Made by a program: the position numbers and the translations under genes. 64,000 bases of DNA, from NCBI GenBank assembly GCA_037128175.1, contig JBAXWY010000008.1, forward strand, positions 1 through 64,000, read 5' to 3'. Under the pieces are notes generated by a model. The model worked only from the letters and a program-made list of their open reading frames with translations, was not told the origin of the DNA and did no database searches. This document shows, piece by piece, positions 2,403 through 33,811 of the stretch. Numbering within the stretch: position 1 is the first letter of the stretch; every line of letters starts with the position of its first letter. Source of the DNA: Methanothrix sp. GTDB taxonomy: Archaea; Halobacteriota; Methanosarcinia; Methanotrichales; Methanotrichaceae.

Positions 2403-3485
2403 ATGAAAGTCTTGATGACTACCACATATTGGAAAGGGTGTCCGGGTGGAATTCGGGCATATTTAGAGAATTTGGTGCAGGAGCTTGAGACGAGAGGAAT
2501 TGATGTAAGGGTAGTTTTCCGAGAAGGATACGATCCAGATAATTATAAGATACATGAAGAGCCCCGATTCATTGATAAGCTAATATCGGCATTTCGTATA
2601 ATTATAGAGATACGGCCTCAAGTGATCCACTCAAATGGAGGAATGTATTATTACCTTTTGGCAGGATACCTCTATAAAAGGATCTTTGGAGCAAAGTTGA
2701 TCTACACATTCCATACTGAACCAGAGAATGAGAATAGGCTTTCCTTTATCCGGAGAGTGGCCCTACAAACACTTCTAAATCGATGCGATTGCGTCATATT
2801 TGTGTCAAAGAAATTGGAATCGAAGGTTCGAGATATATGGGGGATGAAGTTTAGGAATAGCAAGATAATATATGCAGGCGTGAGGCCACATGATATCTCC
2901 AAAAGCTCAAAGAGCGCCTTCCGTCAGAAATATGGCATAAATGATGATTCAATAGTATTGCTAACCCAAGGATTTTTTGCCATGAGCTGCAAATCCGAAG
3001 GCATAAAAATATTGATTGCATCGATTAAAAAGATAACGAAGATATACCCAAAGATCTTACTTATTGCTACAGGAAGTGGATGTCGCCTAGATGATGTAAA
3101 GAACTTCTCAAGCAGTCTTGGCATTGAGAGGAACATCATCTTTACAGGGAATATAGAAGATCCTTATGTAGCCGTTGCGGTCTGCGATATTTACGTGCAT
3201 ATAACTCTGGCAGAAGGCGGCTTATCTTTGGCCCTCCTGGAAGCGATGTCAATGGGTAAACCAATCATAGCTACTGGCGTAGGTGGAATACCGGAAGCAA
3301 TAGATGATGGCAGAAACGGACTTCTAACGGAGCCGGATGTGGATAAAATAGCTGATAAGATAGTTAATCTGCTTGAGAACTGGGATATGGCTGAAGAGCT
3401 TGGTAGAAATGCCAAAAGAACCTCAGAAGAGAGATTTACCTGGGAGAGTTCTGCAGATAGCATTATGGATATATACGTAGAGTGA
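2403..3485 (+). CDS. GT4 family glycosyltransferase
   Basis: EGGLSLALLEAMSMGKPIIATGVGGIPE motif. The ORF opens at 2370; MKVLMTT at 2403 is the likelier start. Confidence 0.9.
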   Translation: MKVLMTTTYWKGCPGGIRAYLENLVQELETRGIDVRVVFREGYDPDNYKIHEEPRFIDKLISAFRIIIEIRPQVIHSNGGMYYYLLAGYLYKRIFGAKLIYTFHTEPENENRLSFIRRVALQTLLNRCDCVIFVSKKLESKVRDIWGMKFRNSKIIYAGVRPHDISKSSKSAFRQKYGINDDSIVLLTQGFFAMSCKSEGIKILIASIKKITKIYPKILLIATGSGCRLDDVKNFSSSLGIERNIIFTGNIEDPYVAVAVCDIYVHITLAEGGLSLALLEAMSMGKPIIATGVGGIPEAIDDGRNGLLTEPDVDKIADKIVNLLENWDMAEELGRNAKRTSEERFTWESSADSIMDIYVE

Positions 3486-30236: not shown

Positions 30237-31145
30237 TTATGTAGGCAATATCCGAAACGTATATTCTCCTTGCAGCGTTACCTTCTTTGCCATTCCTCCA
30301 AACCTCGCCCCCAGGATCAGCTCCCCTATCTCCTCCTTCATCACTCTGGCAATGCCGACGATGGATGTGGTTGGCCGGGCGTTCACATCCACGACCCTGG
30401 GCCGTTCCCCCAACACAAAGTCGATTCCCGCATAGCCGGAGAGGCCCAGCGCCACAGCCGCCCTTCTCGCTTCAGCCCAAATTTCATCAGCGCGGGGCGT
30501 GTTGTAGGGCACCTGGCTTCCCTGGTAGCTCATGCCCTCGCCCCGAAAGTCGATGAGCTGGCGATTGATGGTGAGCGGCAAAAAGCTCCCATCGCCCACG
30601 ATGAAGCTGGCGGACAGGTGCAGCCCCTCATGGTAGCGGGTGACGATCTCCCCGAAACCCGCCCGGGCAAAAGAGGTGACGCGCACGCCCTCTGAGCCAC
30701 AACCCGTGCGCGGCTTAACCACATAACGGTGGCAGCCCTGCTCCACTGGATCGGGCCTATCCACGATCTCAGCCACGGGAACTCCCGCTCGCGCCAGTGC
30801 CTGGGTGCAGAGCAGCTTGTCGGCGCATAGCCGCGCCGCGTCGGGACTTGCCCCCAGGTTCACCGTGTTTTTCTCCAGGATCTCCAGAAGGTGCGGCTGC
30901 AGGTCGTCTGGGGCAATCAGGAGCCCGGCATCCGCTTTGCAGTCCAGGACGCCTTCAAACTCCTCTTCTCCCTTCATGAGAATGGGCCGGCCCGCCTCTA
31001 CAACAGGCCCAAATGTGGGATAAAGCACCTCATGCCCGGCCCTCTCGAAGCTGGTCGCCAGAGTTGCCAGCATGGCTCGCCCCTCCCGCTCGCATGTCCC
31101 GCAAAGGCCAAGGGCGGAGGCGTACTCGGCAATAAGAATCTTCAT
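30237..31145 (-). CDS. ATP-grasp ligase, tyramine--L-glutamate ligase (MfnD)-like
   Basis: ILIAEYA, EGRAML, CADK, KPRTGCGS, TINRQ and DVNARPTTS motifs. Confidence 0.75.
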   Translation of the reverse strand: MKILIAEYASALGLCGTCEREGRAMLATLATSFERAGHEVLYPTFGPVVEAGRPILMKGEEEFEGVLDCKADAGLLIAPDDLQPHLLEILEKNTVNLGASPDAARLCADKLLCTQALARAGVPVAEIVDRPDPVEQGCHRYVVKPRTGCGSEGVRVTSFARAGFGEIVTRYHEGLHLSASFIVGDGSFLPLTINRQLIDFRGEGMSYQGSQVPYNTPRADEIWAEARRAAVALGLSGYAGIDFVLGERPRVVDVNARPTTSIVGIARVMKEEIGELILGARFGGMAKKVTLQGEYTFRILPT

Positions 31146-31217
31146 GGATACAATTGCGGCCCAAACGTACTTAATCCTAGGCTTTATATGCGCGGGTAAA
31201 AAAATGCAATTTCACGA

Positions 31218-31625
31218 TCATTTTTCGAGAGATCCGCTTCTCTTGATTAAATAGTACCCCAAAGACAGCGATATTATGATAGCTGAAAGCCCGAGCAGTC
31301 CCATATCATCCGTACCGTCGTTTATCTCCATGATGATGACTTTTCTGGCCATAACGATCAAGGCCACCAGCAATACACTCAGGACGTTAACCGTCTTATC
31401 CCGTTGAAAGGTCTTGAAGGTCTCCAGAAGCTCCACTCCGATGAGCACTAATAGGATGCTTCCGAAAAAGCTCAATAGCTCGGCAGTCTGCAGGCTTAAA
31501 GGAGGGAATATTAGGTATTTGGCCAGGGTGTAGATCACATCTAAAGTGGCCACAAGCGTTACAATTGCCATTGTCCAAATTAATAATGTAAATATTATAT
31601 TCTGAAAACGTTCAAGGTATTTCAT
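31218..31625 (-). CDS. PsiE family membrane protein
   Basis: LLVLIGVELLET and VALIVMARKVII motifs. Confidence 0.85.
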   Translation of the reverse strand: MKYLERFQNIIFTLLIWTMAIVTLVATLDVIYTLAKYLIFPPLSLQTAELLSFFGSILLVLIGVELLETFKTFQRDKTVNVLSVLLVALIVMARKVIIMEINDGTDDMGLLGLSAIIISLSLGYYLIKRSGSLEK

Positions 31626-31920
31626 AAATCTGAGCCCATCACCTCAATCTCGCTTCACTCGCTTCACGCACCATGTGGTAAAATGTTAGATGTTAAATAT
31701 AAAGTTATTTCTTTTTTGGAGGGCCATAATCAAATGCATCGCTCTCGGAGCCCTCGAAAAAAGCACCGAAGCCAAAGCCGCTTTCGCCAGAGCCATGAGC
31801 TGGGCTATGCGAGCCAATACTCGCTTTCGAGTAGTGCGGGTGACCTGTAATCCATCACTCTTTTTTTGATATGCTTTGAACTGCTGGAGTACTATGTCGG
31901 GCTCTCGACCGCCAACTACA

Positions 31921-31932
31921 AATATTTATAAC
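31921..31932 (+). promoter_or_regulatory. Candidate TATA box for the downstream structured RNA
   Basis: TTTATAA at 31925-31931, about 25 nt upstream of the GC-rich structured segment. Confidence 0.45.
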
Positions 31933-31954
31933 GATTATACAAGTAATTAGTCAC

Positions 31955-32410
31955 TTCATGCCATGATAGGGTGGCGGGCGTGCCGTGGGCTTAACGTATC
32001 CGATAATGCTCTGATGACAAGGAAGCTTTTTCCTTGGTACAGGAGATGCATGCCTTCGTGGCACTGCATTTGGCTACGGGCCTGTGGGGCTGAAACTCCG
32101 GCTGGCTGAAAAAGTTGCGCGCTGTAACTGGCGCAGTAATCTGCCGGGAGTCTCACGCTAATACACGGTCGGGGCATGTTGCGGCACAAGTAGAACGGAG
32201 TAGAAGGCGAGAGGGCGAGCATCATGGCCCCATGAGAAAAGGGTTCCGGTAATTCGGACGCTGTGTGAGATTCCAGCGCGCTGCCGCCTTCGAGCTGGTT
32301 TAATGTCGGGTTTCGGGCAGGTCCAGGCCATCACTTCGGTGAATGGCTCCAGCCTGTTGGGGCGTTGCGGATCGACGCTGGCCTGCCCAGAGACTTCGGT
32401 TATGCTATTT
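31955..32410 (+). ncRNA. Putative large structured non-coding RNA, family unassigned
   Basis: Multiple helices with G-U pairs on the + strand, two cUUCGg loops, a multiway junction closed by GGGCAGG/CCTGCCC, an upstream TATA box and a downstream T-rich tract. Confidence 0.6.
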
Positions 32411-32419
32411 TGTAAGTTT

Positions 32420-33256
32420 TTAAACCAATGGCCGGGGCTGCTTCTTCTCGGGCAAAACCGGCAGAGACATGGTATTTATCAGAAGCGGCTGTTCTACATC
32501 CTTGGCTCTCTCCACCAGCAGCTCCTTGCCCCAGCGTGTCAGGCCGAAGAGCGGCACGGCGGTTCCCACCTGCACCAGAGGCTTTACCTGCTCACGAATG
32601 TGCTTTGAGGCGCAGGCGGTAACAATATCGGCTACAGCCAAAAGCCTCGCCGCATCTTCTCTGCTTAGGGCGGTGAGATGAACACCCACAATCATTATCC
32701 GAACTCTCGTCGTCTTCTCCAGCTCTCGCAGCTTTTCCGCAGATGCTGCATCGGCTACCGTGACGGCAAATTTCTTGTACCCGGCCGCTGCCGCATAGGC
32801 CGCCCCTTCTATCTGGTCTATCTTGCCGTCCTGGGGGGAGAGCACATGCCCATCCCTGGCCCGGATGCCTTCGATTACCTCTGGTATGGGATCGGTCTTA
32901 ACAAGTCCAGATATGTAGCCGCCCATGCCCTGAACCAGATCGGCATTGGCTGTTATCACGCTGCCCGCTCCATCGCAAACGGTAACTGCTGCGTCGATAA
33001 TTCCTGTCTTTATGCCGGTCATCATGGACTCGGAGGCCCCAAAGCCCACGAAGATGCCCATCTGCAGCTTGCGCCGCGCCGAGAACATACCGTGATTTTT
33101 TATTCTAAACTCCATATTTGCAGCCGCCGATTCAGCAGTCACTTTTTTTATGCCCCTGATCTTGTCGAAGAGCGGACACCACTCAATCAAGGGCTCGCTC
33201 GCATCCAGAACCTTTTCGCCTTCCACTTTGACGCGAGATTTGCCTAATAGCTCCAT
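32420..33256 (-). CDS. DUF2099 family methanogenesis marker protein
   Basis: MELLGKSRV, CPLF, FGASE, VCDGAG, VQGMGG.ISGL and GVH motifs. The ORF can extend to 33265. Confidence 0.85.
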   Translation of the reverse strand: MELLGKSRVKVEGEKVLDASEPLIEWCPLFDKIRGIKKVTAESAAANMEFRIKNHGMFSARRKLQMGIFVGFGASESMMTGIKTGIIDAAVTVCDGAGSVITANADLVQGMGGYISGLVKTDPIPEVIEGIRARDGHVLSPQDGKIDQIEGAAYAAAAGYKKFAVTVADAASAEKLRELEKTTRVRIMIVGVHLTALSREDAARLLAVADIVTACASKHIREQVKPLVQVGTAVPLFGLTRWGKELLVERAKDVEQPLLINTMSLPVLPEKKQPRPLV

Positions 33257-33415
33257 TATGTGCATTTAGTCCACCAAAGAAATGTAAAAGCTACTCTCAC
33301 TTCAGCCTTGCGGGCAAAAATTCATACATATAAAAAAATAATTAATAAGATACGCAGGTTTTTCACCTCAATGGAATTATTTTCGACGAAACTTATATAT
33401 ATGTTATCACTCTTT

Positions 33416-33811
33416 ATGCGCCTGGTGACCGCTTTGAATACATCAACCGCCTCAGACCTGAAAGTAGAGCGCGATGAATTTGCATCCATACTCATGAAGG
33501 TAGGCCTGAAAAGGAACGTGGCCAAAGTTTTGACCTATCTGGCAGGGATGGCAGAGGCAACATCTCGCGAGATAGAGATTGGATCGGATCTTCGCCAACC
33601 GGAAGTGAGCATTGCCATGCGGGAGATTCGAAAACTGGACTGGATTGCAGAGAGGGACGAGAAAAATCCAGGAAAGGGACGACCATATCGCATTTACAAG
33701 TTAAATAGAAGCCTTCCTGAAATTGTCGATTACCTGGAGAATGAGAAGTCAAAGGAATCCGAGAAGATGATGAGGCAGATTGAAAAGCTCAAATCCTTGA
33801 GGGCCAATTGA
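33416..33811 (+). CDS. Winged-helix (ArsR/MarR-like) transcriptional regulator
   Basis: SREIEIGSDLRQPEVSIAM and GKGRP motifs. Start at ATG 33416 or TTG 33434. Confidence 0.85.
   Translation: MRLVTALNTSTASDLKVERDEFASILMKVGLKRNVAKVLTYLAGMAEATSREIEIGSDLRQPEVSIAMREIRKLDWIAERDEKNPGKGRPYRIYKLNRSLPEIVDYLENEKSKESEKMMRQIEKLKSLRAN

What the first reader, a model, noticed from the sequence alone, without database searches (positions are those of the whole stretch)
31955..32410. Candidate unassigned ~450-nt structured RNA with its own promoter
Seen: within an ~800-bp gap lacking a credible CDS, TTTATAA (31925-31931) is followed by a G-rich segment dense in helices and ending in a T-rich tract. Helices: CAAGGAA/TTCCTTG (32018-32036); ATGCA-TGCC/GGCA-TGCAT (32046-32069); ACTCCGGC/GCCGGGAGT enclosing TGCGC/GCGCA; TCCG/CGGA and CGCTG/CAGCG (32245-32278); GGGCAGG/CCTGCCC (32315-32388) closing a junction of three hairpins, one with cUUCGg; a final GAC-UUCG-GUU. 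The 5' end has two crossing long-range pairings, GCCATGAT (31960-67) with ATCATGGC (32221-28) and AGGGTGGCGG (31968-77) with CTGCCGCCTT (32281-90), implying a pseudoknot or a switch. G-U pairs and UUCG loops favour the + strand, and T-loop-like (UGAAA, UGAGA) and AGUA/GAA motifs occur. Knowledge: I found no RNase P GAGGAAAGUC, SRP helix 8, group II domain V or complete riboswitch consensus. Inference: an independently transcribed large ncRNA or ribozyme, possibly undescribed.
Basis: partly seen in the sequence, partly recalled or inferred. Interest (0 to 1): 0.85.

Follow-up and report, generated by a model that had tools for sequence, protein, structure and literature searches.

The report
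New abundant multi-copy archaeal structured RNA
The gap holds a real gene for a roughly 470-base folded, non-coding RNA that occurs in several copies per genome in one family of acetate-using methanogens, is very abundant in environmental RNA samples, and matches no described RNA family.

Summary
Window 31905-32421 (+) is one of 7 loci in this Methanothrix genome of a conserved unit: a BRE/TATA promoter, a ~470-nt RNA and a T-rich tail. A model of its 3' domain finds 356 copies in 81 of 105 Methanotrichaceae genomes (11 of 16 genera), 0 of 76 genomes in other families of the class, and one weak hit in 146 further genomes of the phylum. No Rfam 15 family matches. RNase P and SRP RNAs lie elsewhere in the genome.

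The RNA has two parts. A variable 5' domain (three subtypes) is closed by a covarying helix between the 5' end and ~32173-32186. A conserved ~157-nt 3' domain is a three-way junction (92% of cells paired against 31-49% in slid controls; 36 of 51 pairs change on both sides).

In 4 metatranscriptomes, contig depth runs from hundreds to 2.7 million over 31972-32311 and is zero upstream. In three of the four runs it is 2-38 over the neighbouring gene. Contigs identical to this copy's own linker occur in all four. Back-joined contigs (two studies), absent as DNA from 59 genomes, place ends at ~31946 and ~32187 and suggest circularisation.

Function is unknown. The single-sequence folding energy is not significant.

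The parts
31905..31945 (+). Conserved promoter block (TCGACCGCCAACTAC-AAATATTTATAA-CGATTATACAAGTA): BRE-like CGCCAA, an A/T box around 31917-31931, and the spacer to the start site
   Evidence: Homology between copies begins sharply here. The same block precedes every subtype and genus examined. Six sites in the own genome match with <=6 substitutions. That it acts as a promoter is inferred from archaeal BRE/TATA spacing (recalled knowledge) and from where RNA cover begins.
31946..32421 (+). The RNA gene as a whole (about 465-476 nt)
   Evidence: The 5' end is inferred from the back-joint letters GTTTGCCGC... (table 5c) aligned to the window (A31946 corresponds to the family's G). The 3' end is inferred from the T runs at 32408-32411 and 32417-32421 and from T-rich tails in the family. 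RNA contigs cover 31938-32413.
31946..32188 (+). 5' domain, subtype A, closed by helix P1; the part seen back-joined (circular or end-to-end) in RNA libraries
   Evidence: (table 5c).
31949..31962 (+). P1, 5' strand (AGUCACUUCAUGCC; family consensus UGCCGCUUCAUGCC)
   Evidence: Pairs with 32173-32186. It is a 14-nt perfect inverted repeat in L002. The duplex is <= -15 kcal/mol in 60 of 60 copies, with different sequences in subtypes A, B and C. 6 of 14 pairs change on both sides. The window copy pairs at only 10 of 14 positions.
32173..32186 (+). P1, 3' strand (GGCAUGUUGCGGCA)
   Evidence: As above; followed by C32187, A32188, where the back-joints end.
31982..31990 (+). P2, 5' strand (GCCGUGGGC); pairs with 32157-32169 around the invariant CGCUAAUACACGG
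   Evidence: pair 42:316 is C-G in 25 copies and U-A in 10; helix 98.2% paired.
32018..32036 (+). P3a hairpin; in most other copies it is expanded by a 40-80-nt two-hairpin insertion
   Evidence: insertion present or absent; pair 87:165 is G-C in 17 copies and A-U in 8.
32046..32069 (+). P4 hairpin (AUGCAUGCC-UUCGU-GGCACUGCAU)
   Evidence: 98.2% paired. Subtype B has GCUGUC-UUCG-GGCAGC at the same place.
32084..32156 (+).
   Evidence: helices 10-12 are 97.3%, 90.7% and 97.8% paired. Pairs 265:280, 266:279, 267:278, 248:288 and 249:287 change on both sides.
32189..32237 (+). Variable linker, specific to each copy; includes GAGGGCGAGCA (32211-32221), a candidate partner of 32282-32291
   Evidence: Contigs identical to this copy-specific stretch occur in 4 runs (table 8).
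32238..32394 (+). Conserved 3' domain: two small hairpins (32245-32258, 32259-32278), hairpin 32294-32311, and a three-way junction closed by 32314-32326/32378-32389 with arms 32327-32348, 32349-32362 and 32363-32377
   Evidence: Model R1 scores 138.4 bits, E 1e-33 here. Covariation. Window coordinates.
32408..32421 (+). T-rich tail (TTTT...TTTTT), the likely archaeal termination signal; it abuts the stop codon of the convergent DUF2099 gene (32420-33265, minus strand)
   Evidence: Function inferred.

Best explanation
Window ~31905-32421 (+) is an independent gene for a large, stable, non-coding RNA. It belongs to a family that is undescribed in Rfam 15 and in the paper library searched, is restricted to Methanotrichaceae, and is present at 1-11 copies per genome.

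Shown:
- A conserved BRE/TATA promoter.
- An RNA of about 470 nt on the + strand.
- A two-domain fold. The first part is a 5' domain closed by helix P1 between the first ~17 nt and ~32173-32186; its interior differs between three subtypes and carries an optional expansion. Then comes a copy-specific linker. The second part is an invariant ~157-nt 3' domain built on a three-way junction.
- Very high steady-state level in environmental RNA.

Inferred:
- It acts in trans as a stable RNA, probably the core of a ribonucleoprotein or an RNA-only assembly.
- The invariant parts (the P1 base UUUGCCGC/GCGGCAC and the 3' domain) would be the common binding or processing platform. The variable 5' domain would be the part that differs in task between paralogues.
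- A fraction of the 5' domain (~31946 to 32187/8) is released and its ends are joined (circular RNA), most simply by a cellular RNA ligase acting on ends held together by P1.
- New copies arise by duplication or insertion of the promoter-to-terminator unit, often together with an upstream DUF1699 gene.
For: Family and range:
- 5 blastn matches in the own genome, 6 model matches, and a further contig-end start: 7 loci in all.
- 23 of 24 other genomes of the genus by blastn.
- Model R1: 81 of 105 family genomes, 11 of 16 genera, 356 matches. 0 of 76 genomes in four other families of the class. 1 weak row (E 0.0024, 23.8 bits) in 146 genomes of other families of the phylum.

Structure:
- 3' domain, 69 copies: 92.1% of 3467 cells paired against 31.4-49.3% when slid; 36 of 51 pairs change on both sides against 16.9 +/- 2.3; 0 of 500 shuffles reach any of the five measures.
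- Whole type-A RNA: (figures given in the observation check).
- P1: mean -23.8 kcal/mol cognate, -19.0 non-cognate, -16.0 shuffled, with compensated sequences such as UGUCGCCUCAUGC/GCAUGAGGCGACA and CUUGCCGCG/CGCGGCAAG.

Strand: 92.1% paired on the + strand against 75.2% if the minus strand were the RNA.

Expression:
- 24 metatranscriptome runs from 12 studies hold 16-37% of the words of a 1-kb stretch of which the RNA is about half.
- In 4 runs laid, depth is 0 over 31700-31937. Over 31972-32311 it reaches 2,708,854 (X2), 1,036,322 (X4), 66,880 (X3) and 425 (X1). Over 32414-32700 it is 28-38 (X2), 2-5 (X4) and 0-2.5 (X1).
- Contigs with 0 differences over the copy-specific linker: X1 32162-32258, X2 32166-32252, X3 32118-32220 and 32191-32270, X4 32162-32237 (table 8).

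Ends: back-joints ...GCGGCAC|GTTTGCCGC... (X2, depth 658) and ...CACA|GTTTGCC... (X4, depth 112) (table 5c). The joined form is absent as DNA from 59 of 59 genomes of the genus.

Not a known RNA. RNase P RNA is at contig C37 and SRP RNA at C82.

Not coding.

No fixed neighbour gene. The window's downstream gene is convergent.
Against: - The single-sequence fold is not better than shuffles (z -1.36).
- The window copy departs from the family at conserved places: 3 substitutions in the 29-nt promoter motif, AUUAGUCAC for GUUUGCCGC, and P1 paired at 10 of 14 positions with one of the weakest duplexes (-16.7). It could be a weakened copy, although it is expressed.
- The RNA evidence is contigs only. 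There is no strand, no true ends and no per-gene ranking. Depth sums relatives at >=90% likeness. In X3 one contig of depth 407 runs from 32241 into the neighbouring gene, so the contrast there is only about tenfold.
- Depth falls more than 100-fold after 32311. I attribute this to the window's 3' domain differing by more than 10% from most relatives (loose ends at 32279 and 32295 continue with the family's 3'-domain letters), but a shorter main RNA species is not excluded.
- The back-joints are about 0.1% of depth. Reverse-transcriptase template switching between abundant molecules could produce them instead of circles.
- The alignment used was fitted to the model, which favours pairing.
- Some genera of the family lack the RNA: g22 0 of 7 at 91-99% completeness, and no promoter motif in the 4 g22 genomes and 1 g12 genome tested. 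So it is not essential.
- No partner, target or activity was found: no antisense target. DUF1699 is present in 105 of 105 family genomes, including the genera without the RNA.
Confidence: 0.72

Rival explanations
1. It is above all a mobile or duplicative DNA repeat (a MITE-like, non-autonomous element, perhaps moved together with DUF1699). The transcript and its folds would be by-products of a strong outward promoter.
For: - Copy number varies from 1 to 11.
- Homology boundaries are sharp at 31905 and after the T tail.
- The unit is present in the window and in G012 but absent next to the orthologous DUF2099 gene in 5 of 5 other genomes of the genus.
- Degraded copies exist (L011 deletion fusion, L052 truncated).
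- A DUF1699 gene or remnant lies directly upstream, on the same strand, in about 21 of about 95 loci, including a second genus.
- DUF1699 is itself multi-copy: 8 in this genome.
- Tandem copies occur (L029).
Against: - No terminal inverted or flanking direct repeats.
- No transposase in the unit.
- Not found in viral contigs (2 patterns) or plasmids.
- Helices are kept by compensating changes, and G.U pairs favour one strand. That is selection on the RNA, not on DNA ends.
- Three deeply diverged subtypes keep the same promoter, P1 base and 3' domain across 11 genera.
- Being mobile and being a functional RNA are not mutually exclusive.
Confidence: 0.08
2. The conserved 3' domain together with the P1 base is a self-processing ribozyme. 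It would cut after ...GCGGCAC(A) and/or join that end to the 5' end, so the unit would be a cassette that makes circular RNAs out of variable 5' domains.
For: - The invariant parts are exactly the P1 base and the 3' domain, while the enclosed 5' domain varies.
- Back-joints lie at the P1 base in two studies and are absent as DNA.
- No bulge-helix-bulge motif could be drawn at the junction from the sequences (my reading; the definition of the motif is recalled). So the usual archaeal route to circles is not evident.
Against: - No self-cleaving ribozyme family matches at E<=10.
- Junction contigs are about 0.1% of depth, and contigs also run on linearly across 32188 (loose ends and records 6, 12, 22, 28).
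- The 5' end coincides with the predicted transcription start, which would carry a triphosphate.
- Template switching or a protein ligase explains the joints more simply.
- No activity was tested.
Confidence: 0.07
3. It is a cis-acting leader, riboswitch or 3' UTR element of a neighbouring gene.
For: In some subtype-B loci a + strand ORF starts 100-300 nt downstream. 13 of 22 copies are followed by a conserved module with its own promoter.
Against: Neighbours differ from copy to copy and lie on either strand: PsiE/DUF2099, MoaA, ATP-grasp, EF-1-alpha region and others. The window's downstream gene converges on the RNA. The unit has its own promoter and T-rich tail. RNA depth exceeds that of the neighbour gene by two to five orders of magnitude in 3 of 4 runs.
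Confidence: 0.02
4. It encodes one or more small proteins (for example the 89-codon minus-strand frame 31956-32225), or it is a decayed gene.
For: ORFs of 45-101 codons overlap the region.
Against: No Pfam match for the 89-aa or the 55-aa frame. Open frames are no longer than in shuffles, and 191 of 245 indel runs break the frame. Conservation follows helices, not codons.
Confidence: 0.01

Closest known systems
OLE RNA (Rfam RF01071; large, ornate, abundant bacterial RNA)
   Same: A large (~500-600 nt), multi-helix, very highly expressed non-coding RNA of narrow taxonomic range, found by sequence before its function was known. (OLE's high expression: abstract start of PMC3413148, seen in the listing; the rest is recalled.)
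   Different: OLE is bacterial and sits in a conserved gene neighbourhood with a partner protein (its being one copy per genome is recalled). This RNA is archaeal, has 1-11 dispersed copies, has no fixed neighbour, and gives no match to any Rfam model.
ROOL and GOLLD RNAs (large bacterial/phage RNAs that form RNA-only multimers)
   Same: Size class, ornate multi-domain folds, unknown function, sometimes several copies. (RNA-only complexes by cryo-EM: abstract start of bioRxiv 10.1101/2024.12.08.627333, listing.)
   Different: Those are bacterial and often in prophages near tRNA genes (recalled). Here there are no viral or plasmid matches, no tRNA at the window locus, and no Rfam match. Multimerisation was not tested.
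Archaeal circular RNAs (excised tRNA introns, rRNA processing intermediates, circular C/D box and other stable RNAs)
   Same: A back-joined RNA species whose ends sit at the base of a helix formed by the 5' and 3' ends. Circular forms of stable archaeal RNAs are known (recalled; no paper read here).
   Different: No bulge-helix-bulge motif could be drawn at the junction (my reading). The 5' end coincides with the predicted transcription start. Circles would be a minor fraction, and a reverse-transcriptase artefact is not excluded.
Archaeal RNase P RNA and SRP (7S) RNA
   Same: Abundant, 300-nt-class stable RNAs with paired 5' and 3' ends and their own promoters.
   Different: Both are found elsewhere in this genome with strong scores: RF00373 220.9 bits at C37, RF01857 187.7 bits at C82. 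Each gives a single match in this genome. The element matches neither.
ORF-less group II introns / ncRNAs associated with mobile elements
   Same: Multi-copy, structured, about 500 nt, with presence/absence polymorphism.
   Different: No match to the group II models at E<=10. The 5' end is GUUUG, not GUGYG. There is no domain-V-like hairpin (my reading) and no adjacent reverse transcriptase, TnpB, IscB or recombinase. It has its own promoter.

Membership tests
Any Rfam 15 family (4227 models) | Covariance-model match at the family's gathering score | tested here: not met
   0 matches in the whole 64-kb window. At E<=10 in 31600-32700 there are only L20_leader (17.2 bits against 58.7; outside the RNA) and mir-1842 (16.7 against 81). 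In 12 other copies at E<=0.1 there is only a flanking tRNA and a sub-threshold FdoG thermometer row outside the element.
Archaeal RNase P RNA (RF00373) | Match to the model | tested here: not met
   The genome's only match is C37:17303-17606 (220.9 bits). Nothing in the window.
Archaeal SRP RNA (RF01857) | Match to the model | tested here: not met
   The only match is C82:2856-3170 (187.7 bits). Nothing in the window.
Group II intron | Domain V / D1-D4 model match; 5' GUGYG; intron-encoded protein in autonomous copies | tested here: not met
   No row at E<=10. The 5' end reads A/GUUUG. No RT ORF in the flanks.
tRNA / tmRNA or tRNA-derived element | Cloverleaf detected by ARAGORN | tested here: not met
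   0 genes in 31000-33500.
Riboswitch / cis-regulatory leader | Constant position upstream of one class of genes, on their strand | tested here: not met
   Neighbours and their strands differ between copies. The window's downstream gene is convergent.
MITE / IS-derived repeat | Terminal inverted repeats and target-site duplication | tested here: not met
   No inverted repeat joining the two ends and no flanking direct repeat in window 31850-32480 or in L002. No clean empty site was found, so duplications could not be judged finally.
Archaeal BHB-processed circular RNA | Bulge-helix-bulge (3-nt bulge, 4-bp helix, 3-nt bulge) at the two cut sites | tested here: inconclusive
   By eye, the 4 nt upstream of the UUU at the 5' end (AUAG) do not pair with the ACAA after GCGGC (sequences). 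No program was run, and the true transcription start is unknown.
Self-cleaving ribozyme classes (hammerhead, twister, pistol, hatchet, HDV-like and others) | Model match; cleavage activity | tested here: not met
   No row at E<=10. Activity cannot be tested with these tools.
New family proposed here (Methanotrichaceae two-domain RNA) | Promoter block, P1 between the 5' end and the GCGGCA(C) strand, and a 3' domain matching model R1 | tested here: met
   Window: promoter motif with 3 substitutions; P1 -16.7 kcal/mol, 10 of 14 pairs; R1 138.4 bits.

The most novel reading that the evidence does not exclude
The unit is a genome-encoded cassette that makes circular RNA. In this reading the invariant 3' domain and P1 base form a natural RNA catalyst (or the dedicated handle of one enzyme) that releases the variable 5' domain at ...GCGGCAC(A) and joins it to its own 5' end. 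Methanotrichaceae would then maintain families of abundant circular structured RNAs with interchangeable 'cargo' domains.
Probability: 0.07. Interest if true: 0.95.

Novelty: categorically new. Interest (0 to 1): 0.85.

Why it matters
Methanothrix and its relatives are acetate-using methanogens and are regarded as major contributors to biogenic methane (recalled). An RNA of this size that is kept in most of the family in several diverged copies, driven by one of the most conserved promoters seen in these loci, and that reaches very high summed contig depth in environmental RNA from sediments, wetlands and soils, is likely to do something that matters to these cells.

Large structured RNAs of unknown function are rare, and few are known from archaea (recalled). 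Each earlier one (OLE, ROOL, GOLLD) opened new biochemistry.

Practical points:
- The family would soak up reads in rRNA-depleted metatranscriptomes and is currently unannotated.
- Model R1 gives a way to annotate it.
- The three interchangeable 5' domains, the optional expansion segment and the possible circular form give direct handles for experiments.

Tried and rejected
- Known-family searches: searches found nothing on the element. ARAGORN and the bacterial-type promoter/terminator scan were uninformative (the scan does not cover archaeal promoters).
- Long-range pairings. RNAalifold's pairing of GGCGGGC (31972-31978) with GCCUGCC (32382-32388) is 98% paired but invariant. It cannot exist in subtypes B and C, which lack the 5' G-rich block, so I do not adopt it. 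For the segment UGCCGCCUUC (32282-32291) four partners are compatible: the 5' G-rich block, GGGU at 32241-32244, the linker AAGGCG register, and the linker GAGGGCGAGCA. Only the linker pairing can be formed in all three subtypes (-19.7 against -14.8 with shuffled J). Within type A it shows no covariation. This remains unresolved.
- DUF1699 as a partner protein. It is adjacent in about 21 of about 95 loci, but it is present in 105 of 105 family genomes including the RNA-less genera, and in the Methanosarcina acetivorans control. Only 2 of its 8 copies in this genome are adjacent to the RNA. The AlphaFold model is confident (pLDDT 92.3), but Foldseek against the PDB gave no row at E<=0.001, only weak integrase-core rows (TM 0.25-0.30, rmsd 9-15 A). 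The profile search of PDB sequences gave nothing below E 0.16, and the Atlas gave no usable hit. I draw no function from this.
- Antisense targets: no complementarity beyond chance in the own genome.
- Empty-site analysis: the orthologous DUF2099 loci lack the element, but their left flanks are rearranged, and one holds a masked N run, so no exact insertion boundary could be read.
- Viral contigs (2 patterns) and plasmids: nothing.
- Literature. Searches (a badly framed query with useless results), 57, 58 and 60, and a term search inside PMC5737381 (0 mentions of Methanosaeta or Methanothrix), found nothing on this RNA. Only listings, abstract starts and the passages were seen. That paper's supplementary motif lists could not be read and might bear on novelty.
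- The parts of the laid stretch without cover (31700-31937) and the small word shares of runs X16-X24 are not used as evidence of habitat or absence.
The VIA-align libraries were not installed.
Full report
WHAT IS THERE. The 800-bp gap lies between a minus-strand PsiE-family gene (31218-31625) and a minus-strand DUF2099 gene (32420-33265). Taken alone, the sequence does not fold better than chance: -184 kcal/mol, z = -1.36, with 8 of 100 shuffles as good, and the opposite strand gives z = -1.35. No Rfam 15 family matches the window at gathering score. At E<=10 only two chance rows appear in 31600-32700.

A REPEATED, BOUNDED UNIT. The stretch 31940-32420 has four further matches in the same genome at 72-91% identity. 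By blastn it matches in 23 of 24 other genomes of the genus and in 0 of 16 genomes of two other families. The source names on homologues of a flanking protein identify the genus as Methanothrix.

Aligning 22 copies shows that homology starts sharply at window 31905 and ends after a T-rich tail. The conserved block at the start reads TCGACCGCCAACTACAAATAT(C/T)TATAACGATTATA...; I read it as BRE plus an A/T box plus the spacer to the start site. In 13 of 22 copies, but not in the window, a further ~170-nt module follows, with a second BRE/TATA-like promoter.

A profile search raised the number of copies in the fetched loci to about 60. It also showed that matches which had looked like '3' half only' are full-length copies with a very different 5' half.

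Across the family there are three 5'-domain subtypes:
- Subtype A, as in the window.
- Subtype B.
- Subtype C, which is short; the own genome has it on contigs C31 and C4.

All three share the promoter block, the first bases (G)UUUGCCGC, a GCGGCA(C) strand 35-51 nt before the 3' domain, and the 3' domain itself. The own genome has 7 loci: C8 (the window), C28, C6, C31, C4, C55 (cut by a contig end) and C33 (only the start, at a contig end).

RANGE. A covariance model of the 3' domain (R1: 157 positions, 51 pairs) gave these results:
- 356 matches in 81 of 105 genomes of the family, in 11 of 16 genera, at 1-11 per genome.
- 52 of 74 family genomes and 0 of 76 genomes of four other families in a class-wide draw.
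- One weak row (E 0.0024) among 146 genomes of other families of the phylum.

One genus (g22) has no match in 7 of 7 genomes at 91-99% completeness. Four of its genomes and one g12 genome also lack the promoter motif. The RNA is therefore widespread but not universal in the family. It was not found in viral contigs (two patterns) or in plasmids.

STRUCTURE. For the 3' domain, 69 copies from 9 or more genera were aligned to R1. Of their cells, 92.1% form standard pairs, against 31.4-49.3% when partners are slid by 1-3 columns. Thirty-six of 51 pairs show changes on both sides (shuffles 16.9 +/- 2.3). None of 500 shuffles reaches the observed value on any of the five measures. The alignment was fitted to the model, which favours pairing, but the slid controls use the same alignment.

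For the whole type-A RNA (37 copies, MAFFT alignment not fitted to a structure), a curated structure of 122 pairs in 20 helices is 92.4% paired against 37.6-41.6% slid. Twenty-seven pairs change on both sides, against 13.0 +/- 2.3 in shuffles (0 of 500).

The clearest new element is helix P1, between the 5' end and a strand about 230-300 nt downstream:
- It is a perfect 14-nt inverted repeat in L002.
- It forms at <= -15 kcal/mol in 60 of 60 copies.
- Its sequence is compensated between lineages, for example UGCCGCUUCAUGCC/GGCAUGAAGCGGCA, UGUCGCCUCAUGC/GCAUGAGGCGACA, UGCCGCAUCCCG/CGGGAAUGCGGCA and CUUGCCGCG/CGCGGCAAG.
- Cognate duplexes average -23.8 kcal/mol, against -19.0 for non-cognate and -16.0 for shuffled strands.

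G.U pairs outnumber A.C by 674 to 90 in the 3' domain. The + strand is therefore the RNA: 92.1% paired, against 75.2% if the minus strand were the RNA.

The pseudoknot question is open. The segment UGCCGCCUUC (32282-32291) can pair with four G-rich partners. Only the linker partner can be formed in all three subtypes, and it shows no covariation within type A.

The window copy is somewhat degenerate. It has 3 substitutions in the promoter motif, AUUAGUCAC in place of GUUUGCCGC, and P1 paired at 10 of 14 positions.

NOT CODING, NOT CIS-ACTING, NOT A PLAIN TRANSPOSON. Open frames are no longer than in shuffles, and 191 of 245 indel runs break the frame. The two local frames have no Pfam match. 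Flanking genes differ from copy to copy and lie on either strand. No terminal inverted or flanking direct repeats were found.

The unit is nonetheless dynamic. It is absent next to the orthologous DUF2099 gene in 5 of 5 other genomes of the genus. Truncated and fused copies exist. A DUF1699 gene or remnant lies directly upstream on the same strand in about 21 of about 95 loci, including another genus. However, DUF1699 is in all 105 family genomes, including the RNA-less genera, and in the Methanosarcina acetivorans control. Only 2 of its 8 copies here are adjacent to the RNA. Its confident model found no convincing structural relative. I therefore treat the link as a recurrent duplication unit or insertion site, not as a demonstrated partnership.

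EXPRESSION. Twenty-four metatranscriptome runs from 12 studies (freshwater, sediment, wetland, soil and others) hold 16-37% of the sampled words of window 31700-32700, of which the RNA is about half. Four runs from four studies were laid, as contigs at >=90% likeness:
- Depth is zero in all four over 31700-31937 and begins in the bin 31938-31971.
- Over 31972-32311 it reaches 2.7 million (X2), 1.0 million (X4), 67 thousand (X3) and 425 (X1).
- Over the DUF2099 gene it is 28-38 (X2), 2-5 (X4) and 0-2.5 (X1). In X3 a single contig of depth 407 spans 32241-32700.

These depths sum contigs of related organisms and cannot rank genes. But contigs with no difference over this copy's own linker occur in all four runs (for example X3 32118-32220 at depth 5000 and X4 32162-32237 at depth 8543). 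So this very copy, or a near-identical one, is represented in the RNA.

Depth falls more than 100-fold after 32311. Loose ends at 32279 and 32295 continue with the family's consensus 3'-domain letters. I therefore read the fall mainly as relatives' contigs ceasing to align to the window's divergent 3' domain. A shorter main species is not excluded.

ENDS AND A POSSIBLE CIRCLE. Two runs from two studies contain contigs in which ...GCGGCAC or ...GCGGCACA is followed directly by GTTTGCCGCTTCATGCC... (depths 658 and 112, table 5c). That is the 3' strand of P1 joined to the first bases of the RNA. The joined form is absent as DNA from all 59 genomes of the genus held.

The 5' partner of the joint coincides with the start site expected about 23 nt after the A/T box (my reading; the spacing is recalled knowledge). 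Either the 5' domain (window ~31946-32187/8) is partly circularised, or reverse transcriptase switched from the 5' end of one molecule to the 3' end of another. In both cases an RNA species ends at the base of P1. I could not draw a bulge-helix-bulge motif there.

WHAT IT MOST LIKELY IS AND DOES. Shown: an independently promoted, + strand, ~470-nt, two-domain structured RNA gene family that is family-restricted, multi-copy and very abundant in nature.

Inferred: a trans-acting stable RNA, either a ribonucleoprotein core or an RNA-only assembly. Its invariant P1 base and 3' domain would serve as a common platform, and its variable 5' domain would carry paralogue-specific function, with partial release or circularisation of the 5' domain. 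I hold the first part at about 0.9 and the whole statement, with its mechanism, at about 0.72.

Rivals:
- A mobile repeat whose RNA is incidental (0.08).
- A self-processing circular-RNA cassette (0.07).
- A cis-acting element (0.02).
- A coding region (0.01).

COMPARISON AND NOVELTY. The RNA works most like the large orphan RNAs OLE, ROOL and GOLLD in size, ornateness and abundance, and like archaeal stable RNAs that occur as circles. It fails every membership test I could run for known families (see the table). RNase P and SRP RNAs are found elsewhere in the genome.

Five literature searches and one in-paper term search found nothing on it. Supplementary lists were closed, and subscription journals are not covered. 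I rate it categorically new as an RNA class, with function unknown.

Not done: raw-read strand and end mapping, R-scape, a full-length covariance model, and any test of activity or binding.

Noticed in passing
L002:1311-1480 (minus strand of the locus; directly 3' of the RNA copy on own-genome contig C28); the same in 13 of 22 copies; absent from the window: A conserved ~170-nt module follows the RNA. It has a second BRE/TATA-like promoter (CGAAAGCCTTTTATCTCGG) and a hairpin with G.U pairs on the same strand. It also has a possible 21-codon hydrophobic ORF (MAIFPSYIKLTFASLPLIHIS) flanked by CCCUCC motifs. It could be a second small RNA or a small-protein gene.
   Followed up: partly
Own genome: C15:38424-38813, C6:17201-17590, C28:16918-17307, C28:13847-14236, C55:567-956, C13:7060-7449, C4:92628-93017, C39:18557-18943: DUF1699 (PF08004) is an 8-copy gene family here and has 1-20 copies in all 105 family genomes. 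Each copy ends with the same stop-plus-hairpin terminator. The predicted fold is confident (pLDDT 92.3) but has no clear structural relative. Its function is unknown and it looks like a gene family that duplicates readily.
   Followed up: partly
window 31683-31872: Between PsiE and the RNA promoter lie a 55-59-codon + strand frame without a Pfam match and a T7 run (31862-31868). The weak L20_leader row (E = 2) there is chance.
   Followed up: no
L029:1249-1815 and 2692-3254 (G012 contig C5); G009 contig C30 12842-13323 and 15687-16157: Pairs of RNA copies lie in tandem 1.4-2.8 kb apart in the same orientation.
   Followed up: no
L011:1431-1505 joined to the RNA at about RNA position 40: A DUF1699 reading frame runs straight into the RNA at ...CCGTGGGCTTAA. 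This is a deletion that removed the gene's end, the promoter and the RNA's first ~40 nt, leaving a dead copy.
   Followed up: no
L108:576-648 (own-genome contig C4, about 550 nt upstream of that copy's promoter): A tRNA gene (RF00005, 53.1 bits) lies near the subtype-C copy on C4. No tRNA lies near the window copy.
   Followed up: no
L101:1155-1164 (G015, the locus orthologous to the window): The intergenic stretch that replaces PsiE plus the RNA in this relative holds a different small minus-strand gene and a masked run of N.
   Followed up: no
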